From contig DITQ01000006.1 of assembly GCA_002422165.1 (NCBI GenBank), positions 25,384-89,383 of the forward strand: a stretch of 64,000 nt of DNA, given 5' to 3'. This DNA is from Candidatus Pacebacteria bacterium UBA6180 (GTDB lineage Bacteria; Patescibacteriota; Microgenomatia; UBA1400; PJMF01). Of the stretch, positions 6,598 through 63,300 are shown in pieces. Each line of letters opens with the position of its first letter. Positions within the stretch are counted from its first letter, which is position 1. Both the position numbers and the translations under genes were made by a program. Under the pieces are notes generated by a model, which was not told the DNA's origin, did no database searches, and saw only the letters and a list, made by a program, of their open reading frames with translations.

Positions 6598-6602
6598 AAC
6601 CT

Positions 6603-9894: not shown

Positions 9895-9900
9895 AGAGAC

Positions 9901-10368
9901 ATGAAAATACATTATGTTTGCAATGGCAATGTGTTTCGCAGTAGACTCGCGGAGGCATATTCGCTTTCGCTTAATAATGGACATATTTATTCTTCAAGTG
10001 GTCTACGTGCAGCAACAAACGAGAATGGACCGATTGGATGGTATGCTGCTCGCATAGCGAAAAAGCGAAATTTATCTAGACTGCTCTCTCCTAGTTGGAC
10101 TACAACAACCTTGGATTTAATGAAACAACAAGATATTGTTGTTTTTTTATCAAAAAATGTTTTCAGTGATGCAGCTAATGTTTTCATTTTGGATCAACTT
10201 ACTTATGAGGTGTGGGACATACCAGACCTACCTGATTTTGGTTTTACCGATGATAATATTAGCGAGACGGAAGAAATGCGCAGCATTCTCACGTCGGAAA
10301 AAATATTCAATAAACTTACGAAACAAATTGATAGTTTTGTGTTAAATTTAAATGATGAAAATACTTAG
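9901..10368 (+). CDS. low-molecular-weight phosphatase family protein (LMW-PTP / ArsC-like, Wzb-like)
   Basis: N-terminal P-loop IHYVCNGNVFRSRLAEAY gives the CX5R(S) motif at residues 7-14. Size 155 aa. Confidence 0.6.
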   Translation: MKIHYVCNGNVFRSRLAEAYSLSLNNGHIYSSSGLRAATNENGPIGWYAARIAKKRNLSRLLSPSWTTTTLDLMKQQDIVVFLSKNVFSDAANVFILDQLTYEVWDIPDLPDFGFTDDNISETEEMRSILTSEKIFNKLTKQIDSFVLNLNDENT

Positions 10369-16837: not shown

Positions 16838-16839
16838 TC

Positions 16840-17889: not shown

Positions 17890-17963
17890 GCGTGTGTAGC
17901 TCAATTGGTTAGAGCTCCAAGCTTATACCTTGGCGGTTCTAGGTTCGAGTCCTAGCACACGCA
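17890..17963 (+). tRNA. tRNA, anticodon UAU (tRNA-Ile reading AUA) by manual folding
   Basis: 7-bp acceptor stem gcgtgtg/cacacgc, D-arm tagctcaattggttagagc, anticodon stem ccaag/cttgg with loop cttatac (U33, anticodon tat at 17924-17926, A37), T-arm ctagg-ttcgagt-cctag, discriminator A. No encoded CCA. Confidence 0.7.
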
Positions 17964-18007
17964 CGTGGCTAGTCCCCGGAGAGGACAGGTGCTAAAATAA
18001 TAAAGTT

Positions 18008-36982: not shown

Positions 36983-37303
36983 CTATTTAAACACACGGTA
37001 GAAGCGCAACCACAAATAGCAGAGCGCCAGCTGCCAATATAGACAGAAAAAAAGGCAAAACTGGTAAAGAAAGGCAAAAAAAATACTGCTCACATAGTAG
37101 TTGGCCAGCAAATTAATTTTTAAAGAGGTTAGCAAAAGCAGGCCAAAAAGACTGGGATAAAAAACAAAGGGCAATAAAATTTTGTTTTTGACCAAAAGCT
37201 GCATGCTGCGATAAGGATGAAGCAACAACCCCAAGAACATCTGTCCGCTCGAATAAAAAAAGGACTCAAGAAAGACGAGGGTTTGATTTTGACGATAAGA
37301 CAT
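36983..37303 (-). CDS. small hydrophobic membrane protein, hypothetical
   Basis: 106 aa, 3 predicted helices, packed between recF and the sigma/anti-sigma pair. Confidence 0.3.
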   Translation of the reverse strand: MSYRQNQTLVFLESFFYSSGQMFLGLLLHPYRSMQLLVKNKILLPFVFYPSLFGLLLLTSLKINLLANYYVSSIFFAFLYQFCLFFCLYWQLALCYLWLRFYRVFK

Positions 37304-37498
37304 CTAATTGAGGCTAAATTTTAATAAATTCCAAGCAACTGTCGAAGCGAGAGCAAGCGTTGCGATTGTCTGCCACAGATAAGTGGCCACAAAACTGGCC
37401 AAGCCGCTCAATTTCTCAGGCACCAAGCGTTCTTGACCGAGAACACTTTGTTCTTTGGCCACGCCTTTGAGCAAAGTGAGGAAATTATCTTCTCGCAT
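37304..37498 (-). CDS. putative anti-sigma factor / small membrane protein downstream of ECF sigma
   Basis: 64-aa product MREDNFLTLLKG...LSGLASFVATYLWQTIATLALASTVAW with one TM. Overlaps the 3' end of the sigma-factor gene by 14 nt. Assignment by position only. Confidence 0.25.
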   Translation of the reverse strand: MREDNFLTLLKGVAKEQSVLGQERLVPEKLSGLASFVATYLWQTIATLALASTVAWNLLKFSLN

Positions 37499-38057
37499 CG
37501 TTTTGTTCCAGTTGCAACCATAAAGTTTTAAATTCCTGGCGAGCACGAAACAAATCCGACTCAACAGCCTTAACGCTGTTGCCTAGTTCTAAAGCGATTT
37601 CTTTGACTTTTTTGCAATCAACATATTTTTTGAGCAGCAGCTCGCGATTTTTAGCCACCATTCTCTTCAACACCAGGCTAACCGCTTCTGCACTAGACGC
37701 CGCATCCTTGTAGTTCTGTTCGAGAAAAAGATCGCTAAGAGGGATGGTCTGAATAAATTTTTTGGCGTAACGCTTGCGGTAATAATCAGCGATTTCGTGA
37801 CGCATGACGCTTTGCATCCAGGTCAAAAGTGAAGACTTACCCTGAAAAAGATTGAGGGTTTGTAGGCAACTAACAAAAGTTTCCTGCACAATCTCGCCAG
37901 CAACCTGCGCCGAAGGCACCTTTAGAGCAGCTAACTGCCTAAGCTTGCTGCGATATTTCTTAAACCAGTATTCGACAGCCAGAGCATCGCCCTTCTTCAA
38001 AGCGGCTACCAGGATAGCTTCATTATCAAAACCAACAAAACGATTAAGCCTGTGCAT
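37485..38057 (-). CDS. RNA polymerase sigma factor, ECF (sigma-70 region 2 and 4) family
   Basis: Region 2 AALKKGDALAVEYWFKKYRSKLRQLA...IVQETFVSCL. Region 4 LLLKKYVDCKKVKEIALELGNSVKAVESDLFRARQEFK. Start trimmed to MHRLNRF. Confidence 0.75.
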   Translation of the reverse strand: MHRLNRFVGFDNEAILVAALKKGDALAVEYWFKKYRSKLRQLAALKVPSAQVAGEIVQETFVSCLQTLNLFQGKSSLLTWMQSVMRHEIADYYRKRYAKKFIQTIPLSDLFLEQNYKDAASSAEAVSLVLKRMVAKNRELLLKKYVDCKKVKEIALELGNSVKAVESDLFRARQEFKTLWLQLEQNDARR

Positions 38058-38181
38058 TTCAATCTCTATTCTACACCATTTGCACCAACTACTTTTGACC
38101 GAGCTTCGCGAGGGAATGTCCGAAGTGGAGACGAAGGACGTGCCTTGCAAAAAAATGTGGTCCGAAATACAATCAAGCTGC

Positions 38182-38592
38182 ATGTTGAAAAATCAACTTT
38201 TTTTCTTGTTTGCTCTCATCTGGTTTGGACTCTCGCTACTTGCTCCTCATCAAGCACTAGCACAAAGCGTGCAGTTTCAAGACACCCAGGATGTGGTTGT
38301 CACTCTTGATGACAAGCTCGTGCTTAAGGATGGCTCGCTGGTCAAAGATGTCTTCAACAGCACCGATGATATCGTCAACCTCTTGGTTGGAGTTTTGTTT
38401 ATCGGCGCAGGTTTTGTGCTCTTCATCATGATGATTGGCGCTGGTTTTGCCATGATCAGTGGTGGTGGCAGCGACAAAGAAAAAGCCAAAACCACTCTCA
38501 CTTCTGCTCTAATTGGCTTCGTCATTATGTTTGCCGCCTACTGGATTATGCAAATTATCCAACTCCTGACGGGAGTAGACATGTTCTTTTAA
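38182..38592 (+). CDS. T4SS-pilin-like small protein, paralog 1 (signal peptide + two-helix hairpin)
   Basis: Signal peptide MLKNQLFFLFALIWFGLSLLAPHQALA-QS. Core LVGVLFIGAGFVLFIMMIGAGFAMISGGGSDKEKAKTTLTSALIGFVIMFAAYWIM. Shares the W.T.GGD..K.E.A+N motif with the next five genes. Confidence 0.6.
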   Translation: MLKNQLFFLFALIWFGLSLLAPHQALAQSVQFQDTQDVVVTLDDKLVLKDGSLVKDVFNSTDDIVNLLVGVLFIGAGFVLFIMMIGAGFAMISGGGSDKEKAKTTLTSALIGFVIMFAAYWIMQIIQLLTGVDMFF

Positions 38593-38614
38593 AATAGTCT
38601 ATAATACACAAGTC

Positions 38615-39034
38615 ATGAAAAAGATCATCTTTAGCACCTTGTTAAGCCTGACACTGATCTTTTTTGCCAGTCAAAGCGTCTTGGCGCAGTCAGTCTTTGG
38701 CCCCATCGAAGCACCTCAGGGCGTATCACAGTTAAATGATGACGCTGGAGGCATCGGCCTACTGCTATTCATCTCCAACATGATCAAAATGCTTTCAATC
38801 GTAGCCGGCATCTGGGTAATGTTCAACTTCGTTATTGCCGGCTTTACCTACATTACTTCAGCAGGCGACAGCGGCGCTTACAGCAAGATTGGAGAGAAGC
38901 TCTCTTTCAGTGTTACCGGTTTATTGCTAATCGTAGCGGCCTACACCATCACTGGCGTAATTAGTCTGCTCATTTTTGGCGACGCCACCTACATTCTCAA
39001 TCCAGACATACCAACTGCAATCCCAGTACCCTAA
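38615..39034 (+). CDS. T4SS-pilin-like small protein, paralog 2
   Basis: Signal peptide MKKIIFSTLLSLTLIFFASQSVLA-QS. Core IVAGIWVMFNFVIAGFTYITSAGDSGAYSKIGEKLSFSVTGLLLIVAAY. Confidence 0.6.
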   Translation: MKKIIFSTLLSLTLIFFASQSVLAQSVFGPIEAPQGVSQLNDDAGGIGLLLFISNMIKMLSIVAGIWVMFNFVIAGFTYITSAGDSGAYSKIGEKLSFSVTGLLLIVAAYTITGVISLLIFGDATYILNPDIPTAIPVP

Positions 39035-39035
39035 T

Positions 39036-39398
39036 ATGGCAAACATCGGCTCCATCGAACCCATCAGCGAAGCAAGAGCTCCAGAGATCGTTAACTCTAC
39101 TGGCGAAGGCTTTCTTGCTTCCCTGGAACTCTACATCGGCGACATTATTGGCGCCTTAACCGCCCTAGCAGCCTTGTTTTTTATCGTGTACTCCTTCTTA
39201 GCCGCTTTCGAGTGGGCTACGGCTGGTGGTGACAGCGGTAAAGTCGAAAAAGCTAAAAACAGATTTATCTGGGGCACACTAGGCCTGGTCTTGATCGTTG
39301 CCAGCTACTCGATCGTTGGTCTAATTGGCAGTTTAGTTGGCATTAGCATTCTAGATCCTGCAGAACTAATTAATAACATTGTTCCTGGAGGACCATAA
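39036..39398 (+). CDS. T4SS-pilin-like small protein, paralog 3 (no N-terminal signal peptide)
   Basis: MANIGSIEP... core LAALFFIVYSFLAAFEWATAGGDSGKVEKAKNRFIWGTLGLVLIVASY. Confidence 0.55.
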   Translation: MANIGSIEPISEARAPEIVNSTGEGFLASLELYIGDIIGALTALAALFFIVYSFLAAFEWATAGGDSGKVEKAKNRFIWGTLGLVLIVASYSIVGLIGSLVGISILDPAELINNIVPGGP

Positions 39399-39890
39399 AT
39401 GACGCTTAAAAACCTCAAAACCCTATTGCTGATCAGCCTTTTCAGTTTGGGTTTGTTTTTGTTAATTGCTCCAGAATCTCAGGCAGCAATTGTCAATCCA
39501 GTGATTGGCGAGCTCGGCACCAACGAAGGCGCTGCTGACGGCAGCAAATTCATCAACTACACCGTTTACCTATGGCGCACCAGCATCAATCTGGGTGCTC
39601 TGGCGGTCATCGCTTTCTTTATCTGGGGAGCCTTCGAATGGCTGACGGCGGGCGGAGACAGCAAAAAAACCGAAACTGCTCGCAGCCGTATTACCAATGC
39701 CATTGTCGGCCTGGTAATTATGGTTGCTTCTTTCACCATCTTGAGTTTTGTCAGCAAGGTTTTCTTTGGCGAAAACTTCGATCTGTTGCGTTTAACTTTC
39801 CCGACTAGAACCGAGGTTCCAGCAGCGGCTCCAGCAGCTCCAAGATGGCAAGATATTCCAGAAGGTTGGAACCCTCTTCAAAATCCATAA
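39399..39890 (+). CDS. T4SS-pilin-like small protein, paralog 4
   Basis: Signal peptide MTLKNLKTLLLISLFSLGLFLLIAPESQA-AI. Core LAVIAFFIWGAFEWLTAGGDSKKTETARSRITNAIVGLVIMVASF. Pro/Ala-rich C-terminus. Confidence 0.6.
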   Translation: MTLKNLKTLLLISLFSLGLFLLIAPESQAAIVNPVIGELGTNEGAADGSKFINYTVYLWRTSINLGALAVIAFFIWGAFEWLTAGGDSKKTETARSRITNAIVGLVIMVASFTILSFVSKVFFGENFDLLRLTFPTRTEVPAAAPAAPRWQDIPEGWNPLQNP

Positions 39891-39895
39891 TTATT

Positions 39896-40237
39896 ATGAC
39901 CAAACAACTCGCTCAACTCACCCTAGACATCGCCAGCGAAGCTCAAAACGTGGGCCTGCAAGGCGCAGAATTTCACGAGAGCAGCGACGGCGGTTTTGGC
40001 GTCTTATTTGGAAGCTTGATGCGCGCGGCAATGGTAATTGCCGCCATCCTCGTTTTAGTCTTTTTGATCTGGGGAGCGATCGAGTGGATCACTTCAGCTG
40101 GCGACAAAGGCAAGGTGGAAAGCGCCCGCAATAAAATCAGCAACGCCGTGGTCGGCATGGTTATATTGGCCGCCGTCACAGCAATTTTTCTAGTCATACA
40201 AGGATGGCTGGGGCTAAACGTTTTGACATTTGGGTAA
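39896..40237 (+). CDS. T4SS-pilin-like small protein, paralog 5 (no signal peptide)
   Basis: MTKQLAQLTLD... core VIAAILVLVFLIWGAIEWITSAGDKGKVESARNKISNAVVGMVILAAV. Confidence 0.55.
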   Translation: MTKQLAQLTLDIASEAQNVGLQGAEFHESSDGGFGVLFGSLMRAAMVIAAILVLVFLIWGAIEWITSAGDKGKVESARNKISNAVVGMVILAAVTAIFLVIQGWLGLNVLTFG

Positions 40238-40284
40238 AAGTTAACTAAAATTATTAGACAGTTAAAAATTATAAGGAGTTAATT

Positions 40285-40689
40285 ATGAAATCAATCAAAA
40301 AGATCGCTCTTGCTAGTTCAAGTGCTGTTGCTGGCTTATTAGCCTACGCCCCAATGGCCATGGCACAACCAGTCATCAATACCATCGAAGCAGGCACCGG
40401 CTATGCCAATAATTTCGGCACCATGTTTAATAGCCTTCTTAACGTAGTTATGCTGGTTGCAGCTCTGCTAGTTTTCGCCTACATGATCTGGGGAGGCGTT
40501 GAATGGATCACCTCTGGAGGCGATAAAGGCAAGGCTGAAAGTGCTCGCAATAAATTAACCGCCGCCATCATTGGCCTGGTCATTGTGGCCGCCTCTTACG
40601 CAATCGTCACGCTGGTCGTCCAATTCCTGGGCTTTAGCAGTTTCGATAACGTTTTCCAAGACATTGGCACCATCAACGACCCTCGATAA
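40285..40689 (+). CDS. T4SS-pilin-like small protein, paralog 6
   Basis: RBS aaggag. Signal peptide MKSIKKIALASSSAVAGLLAYAPMAMA-QP. Core LVAALLVFAYMIWGGVEWITSGGDKGKAESARNKLTAAIIGLVIVAASY. Confidence 0.6.
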   Translation: MKSIKKIALASSSAVAGLLAYAPMAMAQPVINTIEAGTGYANNFGTMFNSLLNVVMLVAALLVFAYMIWGGVEWITSGGDKGKAESARNKLTAAIIGLVIVAASYAIVTLVVQFLGFSSFDNVFQDIGTINDPR

Positions 40690-40714
40690 AGCCAATCATT
40701 TTATACGAATTATC

Positions 40715-40742
40715 AAAGCCCGCTTAAAAAAGCGGGCTTTTT
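40715..40742 (+). terminator. rho-independent terminator after pilin paralog 6
   Basis: aaagcccgctt-aaaaa-aagcgggcttt followed by tttt. Confidence 0.7.
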
Positions 40743-40839
40743 GCGACAAAAAGTCTGGACAGACTTCTTTTGAAATGTGCTAAAATTTATACTTAATTAA
40801 TCAATTATTTATTTCAGAAGAAGTCTTATTTAAAAACCA

Positions 40840-41208
40840 ATGCAACTCGTCCAACAAGCCTACGCTCAAACCCAAAGCTGGGAAGCGATTAATGAGAACT
40901 GCGTCAATTCTGGAGTAGCCACCATTCAAGGCTTGGGCTGCGCTCTAGCCAATGTACTTTCCGTCGCTTTAACCATGCTCGGCATTGCCGCCTTCATCAT
41001 GATTATCATCGCCGCCTTCAACATGATGATTATGGGTGGCAACAGCCAAGCAACAGAAAAATCAAGAAACACCATCACCTATGCTGTGGTGGCCATTGTT
41101 CTCGCTCTCTCGGCCTTCATTATCATCAATTTAATCTCAGATTTCACCGGCATCGAAGCGATTAAAAATTTCTTCATTCCAGGGTCAGGCAAAGATTGGG
41201 GAGGATAA
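40840..41208 (+). CDS. divergent T4SS-pilin-like small protein, paralog 7
   Basis: Two long hydrophobic helices separated by MMIMGGNSQATEKSRNTIT (a degenerate version of the GGD..K.E.ARN loop). Has its own promoter region after the terminator. Confidence 0.45.
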   Translation: MQLVQQAYAQTQSWEAINENCVNSGVATIQGLGCALANVLSVALTMLGIAAFIMIIIAAFNMMIMGGNSQATEKSRNTITYAVVAIVLALSAFIIINLISDFTGIEAIKNFFIPGSGKDWGG

Positions 41209-54747: not shown

Positions 54748-56919
54748 TTACTTTGGAGGCTTATAGTCGTTAATGCTGTAAACCCCATGCTTATCTGGTG
54801 TAAGTTTTTCGTTTTCAGTCTCGTCTCCAAAAACTGTTTTTACCTTTTGAGCTAAAAAGCCATCCTTTTTAATGGCTTCTTCAGCCTTCTGATCGGCGTC
54901 TTTGAGAGGGTCTTGCTCAACCTTTATGTCGGGGGCTTTCCAGGCGAGGTTGTTTTCTGAATCAGCGTTGACACTCGCGGTATTTTTAAACTCTTGATTG
55001 TTGTCAAGTCGTTGTTTTCGAAGTTGGCGTGCTTTTTTGTAGTTTTCAAAGCTGTCGCCGCGAGGACTCGAGGCGGCGCTAAGCGATTTTTTGATTTCCT
55101 TATCGTCTTTTTTGCGCAACATTTCTTCCGGGTTGGTGGTGATAACTTGATGTTCTTCGTCTGAAGCAATCACTCTCAGTGCCACGTGGTTTTGTCCAGC
55201 AAAAAAGATGCCTTCTCCCACATCAGAAGAAACAAGCAACTGTCGCTCACCCTCGGACAAATAGAAGGTTTGGGTTAAAATGGGGATGGAAGCGGTAGAC
55301 TGCTTCATCAGGAATTGAATAGAGGCGTTGGAAACAATGGCTTTGCCGTAATCGTTATGTAAGAAATCTTCCACGTCCTGAGTGATAGTGGTAATTCCAA
55401 GATAGTATTTGCGCGACCGTTTAACCATGGAGTAGACAAAAGCAGCGCTGTCTGGATGCATCATAAAATACCAAGCCTCATCAATAATGAGAATACGGCG
55501 CCTAAGGTTCTTTTTAACTCTTGTCCAGATAAAATCAAGGATAACATACATGGCGATAGGTCGCAGCGACTCCTCCATTTCTTTGACCGAAAAAACCGTG
55601 AACGGAGACTTGATGTCTATGTTGGATGCCTGGTCAAAAATTCCACGATAAGAACCAGTGATAAATTTTTCTAAACGTGCAGCGATGTCGTCGGCATATT
55701 CTTGCTCCATACCAATGAGCGCCTTATAGAGGTCTTCCATGAGTGGGGGAGTGTTTTTTTGAGTGGCTGGGTCGGGAGTGATGCCTTTGGCTTTGTAGGC
55801 GGCAATAATGGAACGATCGAGCAAAGCCTCTTGTTGTGGGGTCATTTCGCCCAGCATGACCTTAAGCAGGCCGTGAACGGAGAGAATTTTTTGACCCAAC
55901 TCATTTTCACCCTCTTCGTAAAGGTTGGACAGATCGAAAGGGTTTATTTTCGCTTTGGAGCCAAAAGTAAAATTGATGTATTCTCCGCCAACCATTTTGC
56001 ACAGTTCCTCATACTCATGTTCTGGGTCGAGAACGATCACCTCAGCATCAAACATTAGTTGACGCAAAATTTCGAGCTTAACGGTGTAGGATTTACCAGC
56101 ACCAGACTTGGCGAATATAACCATGTTGGCGTTTTCCATTTTGAAGCGATCGAAAATAACCAGCGAATCGTTGTGTTCGTTGATCCCATAAACTATGCCT
56201 GTTTCCATGGTTAGCTCAGAAGATGTGAACGGAAAGGTGGTGGCCAAAGAAGTGGTATCCATGTTTCTGGTGACAGAAAGCTTGTCGACGCCCATGGGGA
56301 GAGTGGTTTTAAAGCCTTCGTCCATTTGTAGGGCGGATTTTTTGGAAACGATCATTAGGGCGCCGAGAGTGCTTTGAATGCTTTTAGTGATTTTGTCGAG
56401 CATTTCTTTGCTGTCGGCACGAACGGTAACATAAAGACCGAATTGGAAAAAGCGCTCTGAGCCAGCGGCCAATTGTTCGCGCATGGCTCTGGCATCACTC
56501 AGTTTGATTTCAGTATTAATGTTGCTGATTTTTCCTGAGCGAATGTCTGAAGTAATTTCTGCCTCCATCTCAGTGATTTTGCGCTTAAGGTTGTCAAGAA
56601 TATCTCCGGTGTCAGAGGGAAAAATAAACATTGAAATATTGGCTTGATGAGGGTAATTGATTAGTGGTGATAGCCAGTTGGCGGGAACGGCGCGAGGGTA
56701 GCCAGCAATAAACAGCGTTCTGGTGTAGGTGGAGTTGATTTTTTGGTAAGTGAAATCCACCTCTATTGCCTCTGGAGCAATAATGTCTTGGATGGTTACT
56801 AGGCCGCGCGAAAACTCGCTTAATTTTTCCTGAGTGTATTGATCGGCGTCAATTTTTTGTTGAGTTGCCGGATCGCTAGTGGTCTTTTTACCAAATAGAT
56901 TAAACATCTTTTGCATCAT
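54748..56919 (-). CDS. virB4: VirB4/TraE-family type IV secretion ATPase (Gram-positive-type architecture)
   Basis: N-region TRTLFIAGYPRAVPANWLSPLINYP...ISMFIFP, Walker A VIFAKSGAGKSYTVK, Walker B/DEAW motif ILIIDEAWYFM, C-terminal acidic extension. Confidence 0.8.
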   Translation of the reverse strand: MMQKMFNLFGKKTTSDPATQQKIDADQYTQEKLSEFSRGLVTIQDIIAPEAIEVDFTYQKINSTYTRTLFIAGYPRAVPANWLSPLINYPHQANISMFIFPSDTGDILDNLKRKITEMEAEITSDIRSGKISNINTEIKLSDARAMREQLAAGSERFFQFGLYVTVRADSKEMLDKITKSIQSTLGALMIVSKKSALQMDEGFKTTLPMGVDKLSVTRNMDTTSLATTFPFTSSELTMETGIVYGINEHNDSLVIFDRFKMENANMVIFAKSGAGKSYTVKLEILRQLMFDAEVIVLDPEHEYEELCKMVGGEYINFTFGSKAKINPFDLSNLYEEGENELGQKILSVHGLLKVMLGEMTPQQEALLDRSIIAAYKAKGITPDPATQKNTPPLMEDLYKALIGMEQEYADDIAARLEKFITGSYRGIFDQASNIDIKSPFTVFSVKEMEESLRPIAMYVILDFIWTRVKKNLRRRILIIDEAWYFMMHPDSAAFVYSMVKRSRKYYLGITTITQDVEDFLHNDYGKAIVSNASIQFLMKQSTASIPILTQTFYLSEGERQLLVSSDVGEGIFFAGQNHVALRVIASDEEHQVITTNPEEMLRKKDDKEIKKSLSAASSPRGDSFENYKKARQLRKQRLDNNQEFKNTASVNADSENNLAWKAPDIKVEQDPLKDADQKAEEAIKKDGFLAQKVKTVFGDETENEKLTPDKHGVYSINDYKPPK

Positions 56920-58348
56920 CCTGAATTTTTAATGGGGCCGCTTCCTCAGCAAAATTTACAGAAGGTTCTTGTGGGCTGCTGGGGGCGGCCTGACCTGCTC
57001 CAGCAGCTAAAAAAGAATTGTCTATGATTGGTGCAGTTTCAACAGTGGGAGTGTTAGGATTCACAGGAGCTTCTTGAGGAGCTGACGCAGCAGCAGCAGG
57101 TTGACTGGAAAGGGGAGTGTCTGGTTCGCTTGGGGCGCTGTCTGGTTGTAAGACTGGGCCGCCTATGAAGCTGTCCTTTTCAGCAAAAGACTGATTGGCG
57201 GGATTGGCTCCAGCGAGCAAGGTCGGATCGAGACTGAGGTTTAGATCGGGATTTGGGTCGGCTGTCACCGGCTCTGCAGGCGTGTTCTCTGCCGCGACTT
57301 CTGTCACGGGAGATTCTGCGCCTGGAAATCCTGCTGGTGGTGGAAACATCTGTGTTGGCGCCGATTCAAGCGTGGGCGACTGCGAAGACTCGGTGGCCTG
57401 AGGCTGTTCTTGAACAAACTGAACGTCTGTGAGCGTGGGCTGCTCTTGAATCGTGGGCTCGACGGGAGAACCGACGGGGCTGGTGGGGTCTTCTGCAGTG
57501 CTAAGTGTGTCGACAGGAGCGGCGGCTTGAGAAGTCTCGGAAGGAGCCATCTGACTCTGATTATCAACGAGCTGGCCTGGTTCGTCAGCAACCTGAGTCT
57601 GTCCTCCAGATGCTTGGTTTGCCGCTGCTTGATTTTGCATAATGTTGTTTAGTTGCATAAATTTTCCTCCAAAACTTGCCCGCACAAGTGGGGTAGTGTA
57701 GTTTTCGCTGCTACTAATTTCTTGTCCCTCAGCAGCCTCAGGGTTGTAATTGATATAGAAGTTTTGAATAATTTCTTGGGTAGTGAGCTGTCTGGCAAAA
57801 AGCCCAAGTCGATTAAATTGTGAGACCAGGTGGTCGCGACGAGGCTCGAGAACGTTAATGGCTTTTTCGAGCAAAATACTTTTTTCAATAAGTTCGACAT
57901 TAAAAGCTCCTTGGCCGGGTAAAACACTCGATGGAGTGATGAGCCCCATTTCGCTTGGGCTGGCAGAAGCGATGATAAAAAAGCGCTTTTGTAGGACGTT
58001 TCTTTCTTTGATCAGCCCCTCTACAAAGCTGCGGTATTTTTTAATCAGGGTTGCCCTGCGCTCTGAGCTTGCTTTGGCGATTTGTTCGTCAAGAAGCCTT
58101 AAATATTTGGTGGCGTCTTTAGTTTGTGATTGAATATTAATCTGAATGGGGTAGTTGAGAGAGTTGAGCACGCTGCCGTAGGTAAAAATAACCGCATCCT
58201 GTTCTTGTTCGGCCAGCAAGCTAAAATTCATGGTTCCTACCTGAAGAATGATGGCAGCAGAACCATCTTTAAGCAGGACCATGTCGTTGACAATGTCATA
58301 AACATCAAGAAATTCTTGAGTGGTAGAACTAATCACTTTGTCGCTCAT
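56900..58348 (-). CDS. VirB4 N-terminal (CagE/TrbE/VirB-type) domain-like protein with ~280-aa Pro/Ala/Ser/Gln-rich disordered tail
   Basis: First about 200 aa FLDVYDIVNDMVLLKDGSAAIILQVGTMNFSLL...IFTYGSVLNSLNYPIQINIQ resemble the VirB4 N-domain (compare DHIVLLEDGSIMSIARIDGVAFELEE in Agrobacterium VirB4). Overlaps the virB4 ATPase ORF by 20 nt in a different frame. Confidence 0.4.
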   Translation of the reverse strand: MSDKVISSTTQEFLDVYDIVNDMVLLKDGSAAIILQVGTMNFSLLAEQEQDAVIFTYGSVLNSLNYPIQINIQSQTKDATKYLRLLDEQIAKASSERRATLIKKYRSFVEGLIKERNVLQKRFFIIASASPSEMGLITPSSVLPGQGAFNVELIEKSILLEKAINVLEPRRDHLVSQFNRLGLFARQLTTQEIIQNFYINYNPEAAEGQEISSSENYTTPLVRASFGGKFMQLNNIMQNQAAANQASGGQTQVADEPGQLVDNQSQMAPSETSQAAAPVDTLSTAEDPTSPVGSPVEPTIQEQPTLTDVQFVQEQPQATESSQSPTLESAPTQMFPPPAGFPGAESPVTEVAAENTPAEPVTADPNPDLNLSLDPTLLAGANPANQSFAEKDSFIGGPVLQPDSAPSEPDTPLSSQPAAAASAPQEAPVNPNTPTVETAPIIDNSFLAAGAGQAAPSSPQEPSVNFAEEAAPLKIQDDAKDV

Positions 58349-58380
58349 TTTTTTTGATCCAAGCTACAGTTTACTAAAAA

Positions 58381-59232
58381 TCAGAGGTTGATTACAAGGG
58401 GCTGGAGGATTTGCCCGCTTAGCTCAAGCTCGGAGGCGGGAAAGATGACTCCGTCCTTTTCCGCAACAATCTGGTAAAAACCATCCTCCAGAGGATTGCC
58501 AAGCACGAAGTTGCCATTAGCATCACTTTTGCCAACTCGCAAGCTTTGTCCACCACGGTCTTTAGCCTCAACTAGAACATTGGCAACAGCAATGCCGTTT
58601 TGATCGACGGTTGTTCCAAAAATTTGGTTTGGCAAGTGCTCCTCAGTGATAGTTTCTCGCGGAGCCTGGAGACTGCGCACCCTGGTTTTAAGATCCGGCT
58701 TGGTTGGTTTTTGAGCTTCAATCTTAATATCTGTGTCGACAACATTTACTTCGTCGAAAGTTTCCAAAAGAGCATTGATTTTCTGATTTTCCTCTAGATC
58801 AAAATCGTCAGTCGCTTCTGCGGAAGGAATGCTTTTTAAGTATTCAAAAATGCGCTGCTTTCGCGCGGGATTAAGATTGACGTTGGGGGCAAAGTAATCG
58901 CTTTGGTTGCTGGTTACCCGATAATTGAAAAAGTCAGGAATGCGACTGCTTTTTTTCCAAAAAAACTTTGTGGGCTTGTATATTTTATTGAAAAAAGTCT
59001 TAATCCAGTGGTCGAGAGGACGCTCCTCAATAGGGACGAAGGCAACCATTGCTCCAAGTCCCACGGTGAAAAAAATTAGAGGCCACTTGACGATGCCGAT
59101 GAGATTGGTTTTAAAAATTACAAAACCAAGCACCACTGCCACTGCCATTTCAGCAAACTGCTTGAGCGTCATCTGGCCAATGAGATGAAACTTGTAGTTG
59201 GTAATATCCTGTGGAATTGGGTGTTGTTTCAT
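58381..59232 (-). CDS. PrgI/VirB3-like two-TM protein with extended C-terminal beta-sandwich (carboxypeptidase-regulatory-like) domain
   Basis: N-terminus PIPQDITNYKFHLIGQMTLKQFAEMAVAVVLGFVIF...WPLIFFTVGLGAMVAFVP fits the PrgI-family pattern (P.D.T.Y.EK.FFGLT.RQ). C-terminus GTTVDQNGIAVANVLVEAKD...GNFVLG. Confidence 0.45.
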   Translation of the reverse strand: MKQHPIPQDITNYKFHLIGQMTLKQFAEMAVAVVLGFVIFKTNLIGIVKWPLIFFTVGLGAMVAFVPIEERPLDHWIKTFFNKIYKPTKFFWKKSSRIPDFFNYRVTSNQSDYFAPNVNLNPARKQRIFEYLKSIPSAEATDDFDLEENQKINALLETFDEVNVVDTDIKIEAQKPTKPDLKTRVRSLQAPRETITEEHLPNQIFGTTVDQNGIAVANVLVEAKDRGGQSLRVGKSDANGNFVLGNPLEDGFYQIVAEKDGVIFPASELELSGQILQPLVINL

Positions 59233-59321
59233 GCTGTAAGTTTATTTTAGCAGATTTTCAACTCACATTCCCTGCGGCTGTAGCGCTGATAGAAACAGCA
59301 AGAAAAATTTTAGAGGGCAAT

Positions 59322-60344
59322 TTATTTTTCTTTAGAGACTGCCACGGCTGGAGTAATAAGTGAAGCCTGAATATTAAGGCCAGCAGAATTGGTTAGTTTG
59401 CCGCTAAAGCGATAAAAGGGGTAAGCAAGCTTCAGCTTGTCGTCGTACCTGTATTCAATCTCTGCTGAGTAAAGATTGGCTTCGTTAATCCAGTTTAAAT
59501 CGATTATTTCAACAATCTGGCTTTCTGCGCTTATGACGGAAACAATGCCATTTTTAATATTGTTTATTGCTTGATTGATGTTGAGCGGGGGAAGTTTTAA
59601 AGAAGGCTCAAATTTGTGAAAAAAGTTTTTAAAAACCACTCTTTCCAAGTCATATTTATTGTTTATTTTGCAAATAAACGGGTACTCTGATTCGTTGGTA
59701 TAGAAAACTGGAAATCCATCTAATTCATAAGTAAGAGGTATTTGTAAAATGTGAGCTTCGTTTTCAACAGTAATTTCTTGTTCTTCCTCGTTGTTTAGAA
59801 ATTCTATAGATTTCTCCTGAGGAATTAACGCCAGACCTGCGCTGTATTTTGTGTAAAAATTTAAACATGTTTGTATGGCCTCTGGCTTGAGAATGAATAG
59901 GTCGTTTTTTTCAAGATCTGACACTTCGACATAGGTGTAGTTGTTTTCGTAAGTGCTTTTGGCCAGCTGAGCGTTGTTTCCAAGCCAATAATTGAGAACG
60001 CTTTGATGAGGAATCATGTCTTTTTCATTAATGATTTGATTGGCGATTATCTCAGCAGTTGTCGATTTGTCGCTTGCAGCATAAATCTTAAAAAATTCTG
60101 GCAAAACAGGGCTTACTCCAGAAAAACTTATTTTTTTAAAAGTGCTTTGAGTTTGGTCGTAGTTGGCCGTGAAAGAATCATTTTGGAAAACAATCTTTTC
60201 CTCTTCAGGCGTAATGAGGGTTAAAATTGAAGAAATAATTAGAGCTAAGCTGGTAAAAATGAGCAGGTATTGCCAAAAGCTCAGTCTAAGCCTGAATGTT
60301 CTTTGGGTTTTGATGGTTTTTGTTTGCATATTTATTCGTAACAA
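59322..60344 (-). CDS. bitopic membrane protein in T4SS module (possible VirB8-like component)
   Basis: Single N-terminal TM WQYLLIFTSLALIISSILTLI followed by a 290-aa extracytoplasmic domain. Assignment by topology and position only. Confidence 0.3.
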   Translation of the reverse strand: MLRINMQTKTIKTQRTFRLRLSFWQYLLIFTSLALIISSILTLITPEEEKIVFQNDSFTANYDQTQSTFKKISFSGVSPVLPEFFKIYAASDKSTTAEIIANQIINEKDMIPHQSVLNYWLGNNAQLAKSTYENNYTYVEVSDLEKNDLFILKPEAIQTCLNFYTKYSAGLALIPQEKSIEFLNNEEEQEITVENEAHILQIPLTYELDGFPVFYTNESEYPFICKINNKYDLERVVFKNFFHKFEPSLKLPPLNINQAINNIKNGIVSVISAESQIVEIIDLNWINEANLYSAEIEYRYDDKLKLAYPFYRFSGKLTNSAGLNIQASLITPAVAVSKEK

Positions 60345-63300
60345 GTGGTGACACCGCTACCCTCAACGGGAGGATGTCTCCCATTATTGTCCTCTGGCAC
60401 CACGGTTTCAATAATGGATGGGCCTGGGTGGTTGAGTAGGGAAAACACTCCGCCGTGAGCCGCTCCATAATGTAGGTGGTTTCCAGAAGAAAACCCCCTG
60501 TTTCCGCTCAGGCCAATTAAATAGCCAGCTTCAACCTGAATACAGCTGCCAGGACTACTTATGCTTGGATTTGGGTCCTGAAAGTGGGCAAAGATTAGTT
60601 TCTGTTGGCCTCCATCACCATTAAAAGTCAGCGTGAAATAGCAGCCAAAACCGCTGTTAGAACAATTGACATGACAAAGCTGCCCATCATAGGGGGTAAA
60701 AACTGGGTTGCCATATAGTGCTGGTCCAAGACTTGTGCCTATATCATAGGCATCGTGGTAATAGGGGTTCTTCGGGTTTGGTCCATGGGAAAAATTGCCA
60801 TCGTATGGCAGTTGTGAGACGGTGCCTGTCATCGGCCAACAACCAGCATCCCCGCTACACTCCCCCAAACACACTCTGGCTGTAGTAATAACGTTGTCCG
60901 CGCCTTGCTGAAAAGCATTCTGGTAATAGAAATTAACTTCAATGGCATTGCTGATGGCGGTGTGGTTGTAATCGCTGCTTAAGCCATCCAGAGTATAGGT
61001 AAAGGTTAAGCTGTTGCCAGCCAAAATGACGATTTCTCCTCCGGTTGCTGCTGGAGACACTTGGGCTGATGGGAGATCACCTTCTGTTGGCAGCGGAGTG
61101 GGAGAGGCGCTAAGAGGCGGACTACTGGCTCCGCCCTGCTCATCAATAATCTTGCGAAAATATTCAAACTCTAGGTTTCTCTGACTTGGAATGATGGGCG
61201 GAGCGCGGCCTGCTTTTTCCCAGCCAGACCTGCTTTGTTTAAAAGTGGTCTCGTCACTAATGTTGATGATTTGCAAATCGAAATCTTCTTTTGGAGCGAT
61301 GGTGATCGTGTACTCAATTGACAGTGGAAAGCTTGGCTTGTCGCATTTTGACCCATCGTTTTCTGCAAGCAAGCAGCCTTTTGTGATTTTGGCGGTTTTT
61401 TTGACCTCTGCGTATTTGGAGGTTTTTTCAACCGTGTTGATAATTTCAGATTCGCTGAGGGGAAAATTGGTCAGAAAAGCTGAGTTGAGATTGGCACGAT
61501 AAAAATAACCAAGAAGGAAGATGGTTCCTGAAGCAATAACGACCGTCTGTCCCGCAATAACCATGGCAGGCGTAGCAATTTGGCTAACCAAGCTTTGAGC
61601 GGGAGGGATAGTTTGGGCTGCAGGAATGGCTGTGCTGTTGGGCGCAAATTGGTTAAAAGCTTCGTGACCGCTAAGGCTGAGGTTTTCAGCAGCACCCCCT
61701 CGACTAGAAAGTTCTTTGTTGAGGGAGGAGATTTCTCTCGCTCCGCCCAAGCCCTTGTAGATCATTGCTCCGGCAGCAAGTGCCGCCATAAGCGCTGCAA
61801 TTAGCGGTCCAAGAGTGGCCATTAGAAGAGCGAAAAGAATATAGGGCCAGTATTTTTTGATAAATTCAATGATTTGGCTGAGAACTTCATTTTCAAGAAA
61901 ACGCAGTGTGCCCGTAGCGTCAGCAGCCTTGGCCGCTTCCCAAGAAGCAAAAGCTGCTTCTGAGGCCCCGGCTGTGGCGGCGCCAGCGGTGGCGCGAATA
62001 CCCCACTTCAAGGCTTCTCTGGTAAAGCGGTTGTCAACCAAATCATCTCCACTCATTCCGCCAGGAATCTGAGTGAAAGCCTGCTGAAGCAAGCCGTCTC
62101 CCTGAGTGGCGTATGTTGGGTCGAGATAACGATTTTGACTAGGCGCAAAGGCCCTTTCGCCCAGAACTTGATTTCCCCAGATCAAAAATTCGTCAAGAGG
62201 ACTGATTTGGGGGACGATTTGTTGAGAGAAAACTTCAATGCTGTATTCAGCAGTCACGTAGCCAGGCATGTAAAACTCGAAGTAAGTTTTGAGGACAGCC
62301 TGTTGTTCTGGAGCTTCCATTTTGGCCAGTTCTGTTTCCAGCTGTTTTCCAATTAGGTCTTGTTCTTGTTTGAGAAAGCCAGCCAATTCGGGATTGTTTT
62401 TGACAGCGTCTGAGGTGGGATCGGCCAAGGCCTGTGCGACAGTTTTGCTACCAAAGTTTTTGTTTAGCTGGCGCATGTAAAGCTGTTTTGAGGTAAGAGG
62501 CTTGCCGTGCTTTGCTGCCAGATTAATTGCCTCTTCTGGCGTGAGTTTTTCTTGAGCGAATTCGGCACGAATCTCTTTGGCCCAGATGGCGCGTTTGCGC
62601 TTCCAGTAGAAGACAATGATGTTGGCCAAAGCCTCTCTGTTGTCTTTAATTTGCTTGGGAGTTAAATCAGTGCCAAAAAAGTTTTTAAGCCTTTGCCAAT
62701 CAATTTTTTGTGGGTCAGCGATTAAATATTCTGGAGGCAAGCCTTGCTGGATGTAGACGTCCGTCAAAGATTTGACGTTTTGTAGAATGCGCTCTCTAAT
62801 TTCTGGGTGTAGGTTCTGGATTGTTTCATCGAGGTGCTGGCTTAGCATCTTGTCCAGCTGCTCTTCGCTGCCGGCGACGCCCAGCTGGCTTTCGACAAGC
62901 CTGGCGAAATCAGCGTCATTTCTGCCTCGCTCGAAGACCTCCTCAGCACTCCTGGTGTCGACGACGTTGATTTGATTTTTTGTGCGCCCACCGAGCTGTT
63001 CGCCCTTGAGTTCTTGCCGCTGGTTTTTATCCAGCTCTTGCTTGAAGGCGACCGCGTCCTTGTCCTCGACCAGTTGACTGACGGCTCTATTGAGCAGTCC
63101 CATGCCGCGAATGTCGATCAGTAGGCCAAGGGCGCTTTTGTTGGCGAAGTTGACCCGCGCTGAAGTGTCCTGAACAAATCGGTCTAGACTGAATTCACCA
63201 CTTAGTATCAGAGTCTCGACTTGCGCGAAGGCGCGGTCCATGAGTTGTTGGCGGATGTCAAGCGGCAACTGATCAAAGGTCACTCGCGTGCCTGGCGACA

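What the first reader, a model, noticed from the sequence alone, without database searches (positions are those of the whole stretch)
38182..41208. Tandem array of seven paralogous T4SS-pilin-like genes next to an ECF sigma/anti-sigma pair
Seven consecutive same-strand small genes (113-163 aa) encode diverged copies of one architecture: an optional signal peptide, a long hydrophobic helix, a short polar loop with the shared motif (W/F)(I/A)T(S/A)GGD.GK.E.A(R/K)N(K/R)(I/L), and a second hydrophobic helix. This is the two-helix hairpin of TrbC/VirB2-type conjugative pilins, in the Gram-positive/CPR 'T4SS_pilin' flavour. Paralogs 3 and 5 lack a cleavable signal peptide. Paralog 7 is much more diverged and sits behind its own terminator (40715-40742). 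The array is divergently transcribed from an ECF sigma factor with a small membrane protein downstream, the classic anti-sigma position. It lies about 13 kb from the VirB4 module. A seven-member pilin repertoire under possible envelope-stress-type sigma control suggests surface variation or host interaction rather than plasmid conjugation.
Basis: partly seen in the sequence, partly recalled or inferred. Interest (0 to 1): 0.8.

Follow-up and report, generated by a model that had tools for sequence, protein, structure and literature searches.

The report
Conserved seven-pilin operon in Woesebacteria
Seven adjacent small genes encode seven different versions of a secretion-system "pilin"; such arrays in ultra-small (CPR) bacteria were described in 2023-2025, and this one turns out to be an ancient, fixed-order seven-part set rather than a variable surface repertoire.

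Summary
Seven same-strand genes (136, 139, 120, 163, 113, 134 and 122 aa; 38182-41208) all match Pfam PF18895 T4SS_pilin, five above the curated cut-off. They sit divergent to a 190-aa ECF-type sigma factor followed by two small membrane proteins, 13.5 kb from a VirB4/PrgI/M23 type IV secretion module beside dnaA.

The genome belongs to the Woesebacteria/Microgenomates group. Arrays of 2-11 VirB2-like pilins in Patescibacteria are already published (PMC12102498; essential in Southlakia epibionticum, PMC10633639), so this is a member of a known kind.

What I add:
- **Fixed set:** the seven paralogs are seven positional orthogroups, kept in the same order in about 80 species-level genomes, with no sign of gene-wide positive selection. 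They are not a variable repertoire.
- **Sigma link:** the sigma module is adjacent in 53 of 65 arrays, more often than other flanking genes.
- **Promoters:** the promoters of the array and of the sigma gene itself are housekeeping-type extended -10 boxes (consensus TGnTATAAT at OG7 and OG2), often leaderless. They are not ECF-type.

The best reading is a heteromeric set of pilin subunits for the chromosomal, relaxase-less secretion system. Control of the array by the ECF sigma, and surface variation, are not supported.

The parts
38182..38592 (+). P1 = orthogroup OG1 pilin-like gene (136 aa, signal peptide MLKNQ...ALA|QS)
   Evidence: PF18895 E=6.6e-7. Positional orthologs are 35-57% identical, against 30% for the best in-window paralog.
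38145..38173 (+). P1 promoter-like site TTGCAA-17-TACAAT, ending 8 nt before the ATG (leaderless arrangement)
   Evidence: A -10 box 4-10 nt before the OG1 start is found in 57/74 loci, with exact TATAAT in 37.
38576..38605 (+). P2 promoter-like site TAGACA-18-TATAAT, ending 9 nt before the ATG at 38615
   Evidence: OG2 shows the same arrangement in 33/97 genes.
38615..39034 (+). P2 = OG2 (139 aa, signal peptide, conserved C-tail FGDATYILNP)
   Evidence: PF18895 E=2.5e-4, below the cut-off. The OG2 clade contains one member per genome.
39036..39398 (+). P3 = OG3 (120 aa, no signal peptide), starts 1 bp after the P2 stop
   Evidence: PF18895 E=3.7e-9; TrbC E=0.045.
39399..39890 (+). P4 = OG4 (163 aa, signal peptide, long Pro/Ala-rich C-tail), abuts the P3 stop
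   Evidence: PF18895 E=2.9e-8.
39896..40237 (+). P5 = OG5 (113 aa, no signal peptide)
   Evidence: PF18895 E=1e-7.
40223..40251 (+). P6 promoter-like site TTGACA-17-TAAAAT, followed by an AAGGAG ribosome-binding site
   Evidence: A Shine-Dalgarno motif precedes OG6 in 84/117 genes.
40285..40689 (+). P6 = OG6 (134 aa), the most conserved paralog and the candidate major subunit
   Evidence: PF18895 E=2.1e-9. Mean pairwise identity among orthologs is 56%, against 44-51% for the others. AF2 hairpin pLDDT is about 90.
40715..40742 (+). Intrinsic terminator after P6 (11-bp stem plus U run)
   Evidence: -19.5 kcal/mol, z = -4.35. Terminator-like hairpins follow OG6 at 49/82 OG6>OG7 junctions, against 7-12 of about 75 at other junctions.
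40778..40786 (+). Extended -10 (TGcTAAAAT) upstream of P7, 53 nt before the ATG
   Evidence: Sequence. The OG7 consensus TGnTATAAT comes from 51 loci.
40840..41208 (+). P7 = OG7 (122 aa; two conserved Cys in the N-terminal part; signal peptide reduced to MQLVQQAYA|QTQSW)
   Evidence: PF18895 E=2.1e-5, 25.0 bits; OG7 clade; N-termini compared.
37485..38057 (-). ECF-type (group 4) sigma factor, 190 aa from Met43 of the long ORF
   Evidence: Sigma70_r2, r4_2 and Sigma70_ECF. TIGR02937 scores 64.5 bits, above the cut-off. Homologs are 185-190 aa. The closest solved relatives are sigma-E, SigC, SigH and CnrH.
38068..38073 (-). -10-like box TAGAAT, 10 nt before the sigma ATG
   Evidence: A similar box 4-10 nt before the sigma start is found in 28/59 loci.
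37304..37498 (-). 64-aa single-pass membrane protein (AS64), overlapping the sigma stop by 14 nt; candidate minimal anti-sigma
   Evidence: No Pfam or NCBIfam hit. A conserved N-terminal segment of about 35 aa plus a TM helix is seen in 41 distinct sequences. It was detected next to the sigma gene in 40/52 loci.
36983..37303 (-). 106-aa multi-pass membrane protein (MP106) with the motif GLLLHPY(R/Q)(S/T)MQ
   Evidence: Next to the sigma gene in 51/52 loci; alignment; no family hit.
54748..63895 (-). Chromosomal T4SS module: VirB4 (54748-56919), 482-aa protein, PrgI/VirB3-like (58381-59232), 340-aa protein, 1187-aa membrane protein with a C-terminal M23 peptidase; next to dnaA (53155-54648)
   Evidence: P-loop_TraG 8e-25, CagE_TrbE_VirB, PrgI 1.5e-6, Peptidase_M23; sequences.

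Best explanation
**What it is.** The seven genes encode seven distinct, anciently diverged VirB2-like (PF18895) two-helix membrane pilin subunits. They belong to the chromosomal, relaxase-less type IV secretion system of a Woesebacteria/Microgenomates (Patescibacteria) genome.

**How it probably works.**
- *Shown:* each protein is a hairpin of two hydrophobic helices joined by a conserved, net-positive loop (GGD.GK.E.ARNK in P3-P6). Four carry Sec-type signal peptides.
- *Inferred, from the positive-inside rule and by analogy with VirB2/TraA:* the proteins insert N-out/C-out with the loop in the cytoplasm. The VirB4 machine then extracts them and assembles them into a surface filament or conduit used in the epibiotic interaction with a host cell.

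**Why a multi-subunit set.**
- *Shown:* the seven positions are one-to-one orthologs in a fixed order in about 80 species, with no sign of gene-wide positive selection.
- *Inferred:* the set is therefore best read as a non-redundant, multi-subunit kit, comparable to major plus minor pilins, and not as interchangeable variants.
- OG6 is the likely major subunit. It is the most conserved, has its own promoter, a Shine-Dalgarno site and a terminator, and is the paralog most often duplicated.

**Transcription.** The array is read from housekeeping-type extended -10 promoters. These are leaderless at P1 and P2. P2-P5 are translationally coupled, and P6 and P7 are separate units.

**Role of the sigma module.** The neighbouring ECF sigma / 64-aa / 106-aa module is a conserved partner. 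It more probably senses or responds to envelope or pilin status, or competes for the shared divergent promoter region, than drives the array.
For: **Family**
- PF18895 hits on all seven paralogs.
- Six of seven also hit the Mycoplasma ICE 'pilin-like conjugal transfer protein' NF045849, below its cut-off.
- Hairpin topology.

**T4SS link**
- VirB4/PrgI/M23 module in the same window.
- The array lies directly beside T4SS genes in L004 and L083.
- Homologous PF18895 arrays sit inside the essential T4SS cluster of S. epibionticum. Of the six pilin genes there (SEML1_0014-0019), the four whose Tn-seq rows I read (0014, 0017, 0018, 0019) are each scored essential, and 0018/0019 also match PF04956 (PMC10633639 supplements; PMC12857230).

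**Fixed set**
- The neighbour-joining tree gives seven positional clades.
- Gene order is colinear 1->7 in all 80 loci from the genome scan: '1234567' in 29, with duplications essentially confined to OG2 and OG6 and OG4 lost in a few.
- dN is 0.10-0.24, like neighbouring genes, and dN/dS is 0.056-0.089.

**OG6**.

**Promoters**; background 4.4%; same architecture at L25, DNA ligase, TreT, Fic and PrgI.

**Sigma link**
- Five of six sigma homologs at 49-78% identity sit next to an array.
- Sigma is adjacent in 53/65 arrays, against RecF in 28/52 and UppS in 31/75.
Against: - No pilus has been seen in any Patescibacterium.
- PF04956 (TrbC/VirB2) is not met.
- Fold searches are uninformative, because helical hairpins match everything.
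- In this clade T4SS genes lie within 10 kb of the array in only 2 of 86 loci. The physical link to the T4SS is therefore weak here and rests partly on other classes.
- Heteromeric assembly and the major-subunit role of OG6 are inferences from conservation and expression signals only.
- Essentiality in S. epibionticum could partly reflect polar transposon effects.
- dS is saturated (above 1.7), so site-specific positive selection in the ectodomain tails cannot be excluded.
Confidence: 0.6

Rival explanations
1. Variable repertoire. The paralogs are interchangeable pilin variants used for antigenic or host-range variation, as proposed for Bartonella and Anaplasma VirB2 paralogs, suggested for Patescibacteria in PMC12102498, and proposed by the first reader.
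For: - Low identity between paralogs, 20-41%.
- Lineage-specific duplications of OG2 and OG6 give 8-10 genes in some species.
- The N-terminal and C-terminal extracellular tails are the least conserved parts.
Against: - Each paralog has a one-to-one ortholog at the same position in about 80 species, and is closer to it (35-78%) than to any in-window paralog.
- No copy-number turnover apart from OG2 and OG6.
- dN is like that of housekeeping neighbours, and dN/dS is at or below 0.09.
- No repeats, recombination cassettes or silent copies were seen.
- In S. epibionticum, the four pilin genes whose Tn-seq rows I read are each scored essential.
Confidence: 0.08
2. ECF regulon. The adjacent ECF sigma factor, released from its membrane anti-sigma by an envelope or host-contact signal, directly transcribes the pilin array.
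For: - The divergent adjacency is conserved in 53/65 arrays, and more strongly than other flanks.
- A co-transcribed single-pass membrane protein in the anti-sigma position is conserved alongside it.
Against: - The conserved promoter elements at OG1, OG2, OG7 and the sigma gene carry consensus -10 boxes, with the upstream TG giving TGnTATAAT at OG7 and OG2. From established knowledge, ECF sigmas lack region 3.0 and do not use this element.
- Housekeeping genes of the genome use the same architecture.
- No shared GGAAC/CGT-like motif is visible in the intergenic regions.
- 12 of 65 arrays have no sigma gene nearby.
Confidence: 0.15
3. Not a T4SS component. The heptad forms a separate membrane complex of small two-helix proteins, unrelated in function to the VirB4 machine. 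On this view PF18895 is a naming convention, not evidence of function.
For: - T4SS genes lie within 10 kb of the array in only 2 of 86 loci of this clade.
- The constant neighbours are the sigma module, RecF and UppS (undecaprenyl-PP synthase).
- Fold searches match generic hairpins, including ATP synthase subunit c.
- No hit in solved pilins by sequence.
Against: - Two independent models built on T4SS/ICE-linked proteins hit the paralogs (PF18895, NF045849).
- The array abuts the T4SS in L004 and L083.
- Homologous arrays are embedded in the T4SS cluster of Saccharibacteria, and some members there also match TrbC/VirB2.
- The pilin gene lies near virB4 in 1135 of 1948 assemblies (PMC12102498).
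Confidence: 0.15

Closest known systems
VirB2-like pilin arrays of Patescibacteria (Quinonero-Coronel et al. 2025, PMC12102498; S. epibionticum SEML1_0014-0019, Wang et al. 2023, PMC10633639)
   Same: - Tandem PF18895 genes of about 110-165 aa with about 25% identity between copies.
- The genome carries a monoderm-type VirB4/PrgI/VirB6 system near dnaA without a relaxase.
- Such arrays are reported as especially common in Microgenomatia.
   Different: - Here the array is 13.5 kb from the T4SS genes and not inside the cluster.
- It is paired with an ECF sigma / 64-aa / 106-aa module; a full-text search for 'ECF sigma', Patescibacteria and pilin together found no paper.
- I show a fixed seven-orthogroup order across species, whereas the paper discusses the copies as possible variation.
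VirB2 / TrbC / TraA conjugative pilins of diderm T4SS (Pfam PF04956)
   Same: - Small proteins with a leader peptide, two hydrophobic helices and a short basic loop.
- Encoded in genomes with VirB4.
   Different: - The PF04956 model is not met (best E=0.045).
- No significant sequence or fold match to solved pilins.
- The host is a monoderm.
- There are seven different subunits where those systems have one major pilin.
Mycoplasma ICE Mbov_0395 pilin-like conjugal transfer protein (NCBIfam NF045849)
   Same: Six of seven paralogs match it over the whole 80-residue hairpin (E 1.7e-4 to 4.4e-7). It is also a wall-less or monoderm MPF-FATA-type context.
   Different: All scores (21-30 bits) are below the 40-bit cut-off. 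The Mycoplasma protein is a single gene on a mobile element.
VirB2 paralog clusters of Bartonella / Anaplasma
   Same: Several diverged VirB2-type genes in tandem.
   Different: Those are thought to serve antigenic or host-range variation (as cited in PMC12102498). Here the copies are stable orthogroups with no sign of positive selection.
Major plus minor pilin sets of type IV pili / T2SS pseudopili (functional analogy only)
   Same: A conserved, ordered operon of several related small subunits with non-redundant roles.
   Different: Unrelated fold and processing: no prepilin-peptidase G|F motif, and a hairpin where those have a single N-terminal helix plus a globular head.
ECF sigma / membrane anti-sigma pairs (sigma-E/RseA, CnrH/CnrY)
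   Same: - A 190-aa protein with only the sigma-2 and sigma-4 domains.
- The downstream overlapping gene encodes a single-pass membrane protein with a short conserved cytoplasmic N-terminus, a length comparable to the short CnrY-type anti-sigma domain (comparison from my own knowledge).
   Different: - The 64-aa protein matches no anti-sigma family.
- No ECF-type promoter was found.
- There is an extra conserved 106-aa multi-pass partner.

Membership tests
Pfam PF18895 T4SS_pilin | Profile score at or above the gathering threshold (26.6 bits) | tested here: met
   P1 29.8, P3 37.0, P4 34.1, P5 32.3 and P6 37.8 bits. P2 (21.5) and P7 (25.0) are just below, but they belong to the same conserved operon and align with the others.
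Pfam PF18895 T4SS_pilin | Two hydrophobic helices joined by a short polar loop | tested here: met
   Hydropathy analysis. AF2 model of P6: helices 40-76 and 81-114, pLDDT about 90.
Pfam PF18895 T4SS_pilin | Encoded in a genome or locus with T4SS genes (VirB4 and others) | tested here: met
   VirB4/PrgI/M23 lie 13.5 kb away in the window and directly adjacent in L004 and L083. They are within 10 kb in only 2 of 86 loci of this clade, so the link is genomic co-presence, not clustering.
TrbC/VirB2 pilin (Pfam PF04956) | Profile score at or above the gathering threshold (27.9 bits) | tested here: not met
   The best hit is P3 at 14.4 bits, E=0.045. The other six have no hit.
TrbC/VirB2 pilin (Pfam PF04956) | Fold similarity to solved conjugative pilins | tested here: inconclusive
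TrbC/VirB2 pilin (Pfam PF04956) | Leader cleavage and polymerisation into an extracellular pilus by a VirB4-containing machine | not testable with these tools
   Only heuristic signal-peptide calls are available: P1, P2, P4 and P6 yes; P3, P5 and P7 no.
Patescibacterial VirB2 array (as defined in PMC12102498) | Two or more PF18895/PF04956 genes in tandem (or separated by one gene) in an assembly that has VirB4 | tested here: met
   Seven tandem genes; VirB4 in the window.
Patescibacterial VirB2 array (as defined in PMC12102498) | Low identity among members (reported mean 25%, maximum 54%) | tested here: met
   20-28% identity to P1. The best in-window pair is 41%.
ECF (group 4) sigma factor | Only sigma-2 and sigma-4 domains, about 170-200 aa, matching ECF models | tested here: met
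   PF04542, PF08281 and PF07638. TIGR02937 scores 64.5 bits against a 42.9-bit cut-off. The nearest solved proteins are sigma-E, SigC, SigH and CnrH.
ECF (group 4) sigma factor | Cognate anti-sigma factor encoded immediately downstream | tested here: inconclusive
   The 64-aa single-pass protein overlaps the sigma stop and is conserved with it. It matches no anti-sigma family and has no zinc-binding HxxxCxxC motif.
ECF (group 4) sigma factor | ECF-type promoter in front of its own operon and its targets | tested here: not met
   The sigma gene and the array carry -10 boxes of TAGAAT/TATAAT type, with the upstream TG giving TGnTATAAT at OG7 and OG2, close to the start codons. Housekeeping genes do the same. 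A weak second promoter cannot be excluded.

The most novel reading that the evidence does not exclude
The heptad builds a heteropolymeric conjugative-type pilus or conduit made of seven obligatory, non-interchangeable VirB2-like subunits in a monoderm. That would be the first multi-subunit T4SS pilus. The conserved ECF sigma / 64-aa / 106-aa membrane module would act as a dedicated checkpoint that reads the membrane pilin pool or pilus and host-contact status, and reprograms transcription elsewhere in the genome. In many species this would be reinforced by back-to-back overlapping -10 boxes that make transcription of the sigma gene and of OG1 compete.
Probability: 0.2. Interest if true: 0.75.

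Novelty: new member of a known kind. Interest (0 to 1): 0.42.

Why it matters
Patescibacteria depend on host cells. In the one genetically tractable species, the T4SS and its pilin array are essential, yet nobody knows what structure they build.

Showing that the Microgenomates array is a fixed, ordered set of seven orthologous subunits changes the working hypothesis from variable adhesins to a multi-subunit machine part. It also tells experimenters that each paralog should be studied as a distinct component, with OG6 first as the likely major subunit.

The conserved ECF sigma module next to the array is a concrete candidate for the still unknown regulation of the epibiotic life cycle. The leaderless housekeeping promoters give usable expression signals for genetic work in this group.

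Tried and rejected
- **Profile search against PDB sequences**: only chance-level hits.
- **tblastn of P6 against 72,556 plasmids**: no match. I could therefore not show the family on bona fide conjugative plasmids.
- **dN/dS against the closest available relative L087**: dS is saturated (above 1.7, or undefined for 8 of 19 genes).
- **Search for an ECF-type promoter.** I aligned 50-60 intergenic regions on their -10 boxes. No conserved -35 or GGAAC-like element appeared.
- **Rfam scan of the window**: only one tRNA, and no RNA element in the array.
- **Long 232-aa reading of the sigma ORF.** I considered it and rejected it. It would overlap the P1 start, whereas homologs are 185-190 aa.
- **P1 start at 38157.** Rejected, because relatives start at the MLK-type Met directly after a -10 box.
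- **Large pilin-domain genes.** I looked in the window for the two large genes seen in relatives; there are none.

Full report
**1. What is there**

The ORF list and the sequence show seven consecutive + strand genes between 38182 and 41208. They are P1 38182-38592 (136 aa), P2 38615-39034 (139 aa), P3 39036-39398 (120 aa), P4 39399-39890 (163 aa), P5 39896-40237 (113 aa), P6 40285-40689 (134 aa) and P7 40840-41208 (122 aa). The spacing is 22, 1, 0, 5, 47 and 150 bp. P2-P5 are therefore tightly coupled, and P6 and P7 stand apart.

All seven match Pfam PF18895 T4SS_pilin, five above the curated cut-off. P2 (21.5 bits) and P7 (25.0 bits) fall just under it. TrbC/VirB2 (PF04956) is not met; the best hit is P3 at E = 0.045. 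Six of the seven also hit NCBIfam NF045849, the 'Mbov_0395 family pilin-like conjugal transfer protein' of Mycoplasma ICEs, below its cut-off.

The seven align over a common core: hydrophobic helix, short loop, hydrophobic helix. They share only 20-41% identity. Hydropathy analysis and a simple signal-peptide heuristic give Sec-type leaders for P1, P2, P4 and, more weakly, P6. P3, P5 and P7 have none. The loop is net positive in six of the seven. An AF2 model of P6 with a 48-sequence alignment gives two long helices (40-76 and 81-114) at pLDDT of about 90.

The hairpin at 40715-40742 is a strong intrinsic terminator (-19.5 kcal/mol, z = -4.35).

**2. Surroundings**

The divergent gene has Sigma70_r2, r4_2 and Sigma70_ECF domains and matches TIGR02937. 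Its nearest solved relatives are sigma-E, SigC, SigH and CnrH. Its homologs are 185-190 aa long, so the real start is Met43 at 38057. That leaves 124 bp between the two divergent start codons.

A 64-aa single-pass membrane ORF (37304-37498) overlaps the sigma stop by 14 nt. A 106-aa multi-pass ORF (36983-37303) follows directly, and then recF. Neither small protein matches any family. After P7 come uppS, a Nudix gene and a class I aminoacyl-tRNA synthetase.

A T4SS module lies next to dnaA and dnaN, 13.5 kb from P7. It contains VirB4, a PrgI/VirB3-like protein, and a 1187-aa membrane protein with a C-terminal M23 peptidase. No relaxase or VirD4 domain was found in any window ORF scanned against Pfam.

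Sigma and pilin homologs are named Woesebacteria or Pacebacteria by their sources, that is, the Microgenomates group. P6 is 100% identical to a protein on a public 124-kb contig.

**3. Already known**

PMC12102498 (2025) searched 3,035 Patescibacteria genomes with PF18895 and PF04956. It reports 441 'VirB2 arrays' of 2-11 pilin genes, especially in Microgenomatia and Saccharimonadia. The mean identity within an array is 25%. T4SS genes often lie near dnaA, and relaxases are mostly absent.

Wang et al. 2023 (PMC10633639) found the pilin series of S. epibionticum to be essential. A 2025 review (PMC12857230) calls it a cluster of six sequence-divergent VirB2-like pilins. The array in the window is therefore a member of a described kind.

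PMC12102498 does not mention sigma factors. No paper in the library combines 'ECF sigma', Patescibacteria and pilin.

**4. The seven copies are seven orthogroups, not a repertoire**

I looked up the contigs carrying six sigma homologs at 49-78% identity. Five sit divergent to a run of seven or eight small genes. One does not.

A tree of the 44 proteins from the window and five such loci falls into seven clades, one per position, each with one member per genome. Each window paralog is 35-78% identical to its positional orthologs, but only 26-41% identical to its best in-window paralog.

A scan of species-representative genomes with an OG6 alignment gave 245 confirmed hits, of which the best 80 loci were kept. 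I ran orthogroup-specific HMMs over all ORFs of these loci and tallied the order. It is always colinear 1->7:

| Order | Loci |
|---|---|
| 1234567 | 29 |
| 122345667 | 14 |
| 12345667 | 7 |
| 12234567 | 6 |
| 1223456667 | 3 |
| 123567 | 4 |
| 123345667 | 1 |
| Incomplete or cut by a contig end | remainder |

Duplication is essentially confined to OG2 and OG6.

Against the closest relative with DNA (L087, sigma 88% identical), dN of the pilins is 0.10-0.24. That is within the range of the neighbouring housekeeping genes (0.04-0.26). dN/dS is 0.056-0.089 where it could be computed, although dS is saturated.

In S. epibionticum the four pilin genes whose Tn-seq rows I read (SEML1_0014, 0017, 0018, 0019) are each scored essential, and two of them also match PF04956.

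Together this argues for seven non-redundant subunits and against antigenic or host-range variation.

OG6 stands out in several ways. It has the highest conservation (56% mean pairwise identity against 44-51%). A Shine-Dalgarno site precedes it in 84/117 genes. A terminator-like hairpin follows it at 49/82 OG6>OG7 junctions and 25/32 OG6>OG6 junctions, against 7-12 of about 75 at other junctions. I take it as the likely major subunit; this is an inference.

**5. The sigma link is real but is not promoter control**

Of 65 arrays with at least 1.5 kb of sequence upstream of OG1, 53 have the sigma gene divergent and adjacent. The 106-aa protein accompanies sigma in 51/52 loci and the 64-aa protein in at least 40/52. 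By contrast, recF is next in only 28/52 loci and uppS follows OG7 in only 31/75. The sigma-array pairing therefore outlasts ordinary synteny.

The promoters tell a different story. A TATAAT-like box lies 4-10 nt before the OG1 start in 57/74 loci, and it is exact in 37. For OG7 the figure is 52/83, with consensus TGnTATAAT; for OG2 it is 33/97. For OG4 and OG5, which serve as internal controls, it is only 6/73 and 5/78. The background over all ATGs is 4.4%, or 0.53% for exact TATAAT.

The sigma gene itself has TAGAAT/TAAAAT 4-10 nt before its ATG in 28/59 loci. In the window:
- P1 has TTGCAA-17-TACAAT, then 8 nt, then the ATG.
- P2 has TAGACA-18-TATAAT, then 9 nt, then the ATG.
- P6 has TTGACA-17-TAAAAT plus AAGGAG.
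- P7 has TGcTAAAAT.
- Sigma has TAGAAT, then 10 nt, then the ATG.

The same leaderless or short-leader box stands in front of the L25, DNA ligase, TreT, Fic, DUF4012 and PrgI genes in the window, and Shine-Dalgarno sites are rare. From established knowledge, extended -10 recognition needs sigma region 3.0, which ECF sigmas lack. On the sequence evidence, the array is read by the primary sigma factor.

In many species the two start codons are only 20-50 bp apart, so the two -10 boxes lie back to back. That could make the two promoters compete; this is speculation.

**6. How it most likely works**

- *Shown:* family membership, hairpin topology, signal peptides on four of seven, fixed orthogroups, promoter and terminator signals, and co-presence with a VirB4 system.
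- *Inferred:* N-out/C-out membrane insertion with the basic loop inside; extraction and assembly by the VirB4 machine into a heteromeric surface filament or conduit used in host interaction; OG6 as the major subunit and the others as minor, base or tip subunits; and the sigma / 64-aa / 106-aa module as a sensor of envelope or pilin status that acts on other genes.

The main weakness is that in this clade T4SS genes lie within 10 kb of the array in only 2 of 86 loci (L004 and L083). The T4SS assignment therefore rests on profile matches, on genome co-presence, and on the clustered arrangement seen in other classes.

**7. What did not help**

Fold searches returned only generic hairpins. A profile search of PDB sequences and tblastn against plasmids found nothing. 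The afdb50 library was unavailable. Rfam found no RNA element in the array.

**8. Verdict**

The pilin, sigma and T4SS identifications are right. The proposed ECF control and surface variation are not supported.

The feature is a new member of a published kind. Two analysis-level additions are worth passing on: the fixed seven-orthogroup order, and the conserved sigma module combined with housekeeping leaderless promoters.

Noticed in passing
window 38145-38182, 38576-38615, 38058-38073; also genes at 8641, 31789, 34956, 46024, 49101, 59232: Many first-in-operon genes of this genome have a -10 box (TAnAAT, often with an upstream TG) only 5-11 nt before the start codon and no Shine-Dalgarno site. 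Only about 4 of 44 genes have one. Leaderless or near-leaderless mRNAs therefore seem to be the normal mode here.
   Followed up: partly
window 40840-40870 (P7 N-terminus); L004-L006 and most of L019-L086 for comparison: In the window's subclade (about 12 species) OG7 starts MQ(L/I)(V/I)xQAYA|QTQxW. The n- and h-regions of the signal peptide present in most other lineages (...AxA|QTxxW) are missing, but the former cleavage-site residues are kept. A 35-residue N-tail with two conserved Cys would then have to cross the membrane without a leader.
   Followed up: partly
L005 11816-13889; also upstream of the arrays in L024, L027, L030, L037, L039, L042, L047, L050, L055-L057, L061, L073, L074, L077, L079, L080: Many relatives carry two extra, larger pilin-domain genes: a signal peptide, a 170-340-aa ectodomain and a C-terminal pilin hairpin (about 240 aa and about 400-430 aa). 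They run in the same direction as the array, and in 9 of the 12 sigma-less loci they lie directly in front of OG1. None is present in the 64-kb window.
   Followed up: partly
window 38058-38181 versus L087 7819-7863: The sigma-P1 intergenic region is 124 bp in the window but 45 bp in the closest relative, and 20-50 bp in many species. The window seems to carry an insertion of about 80 bp between the two -10 boxes.
   Followed up: no
window 36983-37303: The 106-aa multi-pass membrane protein has a very conserved motif, GQ.xLGLLLHPY(R/Q)(S/T)MQxLV, and accompanies the sigma gene in 51/52 loci. It matches no Pfam or NCBIfam family.
   Followed up: partly
window 33865-34956: The Fic/DOC protein with a C-terminal DeoR-type HTH is by far the most conserved gene of the neighbourhood. 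It is 93.7% identical to L087, with dN/dS 0.013, where the aminoacyl-tRNA synthetase is 83% identical.
   Followed up: no
window 1175-13606: A low-GC stretch (32-37%, against about 47% elsewhere) is full of glycosyltransferases (GT2, GT1, WecG, TreT-like, GlgA-like), methyltransferases and a PQQ-propeller protein. It may be an acquired surface-glycan island.
   Followed up: no
window 17890-17964: There is a tRNA-Ile with anticodon UAU. From my own knowledge this is unusual in bacteria, which normally use a lysidine-modified CAU.
   Followed up: no
window 15452-17841: Two adjacent membrane-anchored proteins (461 and 333 aa) are rich in Cys and in Thr/Pro repeats and match no Pfam family. They are probably surface proteins.
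   Followed up: no
record titles of loci L008-L086: Many GenBank titles of these obviously Patescibacterial MAG contigs read 'uncultured Pseudomonadales bacterium', 'Vitreimonas sp.' or 'candidate division TM6'. Several JGI annotations call OG6 'cytochrome bd-type quinol oxidase subunit 2'. The public labels for this family and these genomes are unreliable.
   Followed up: no
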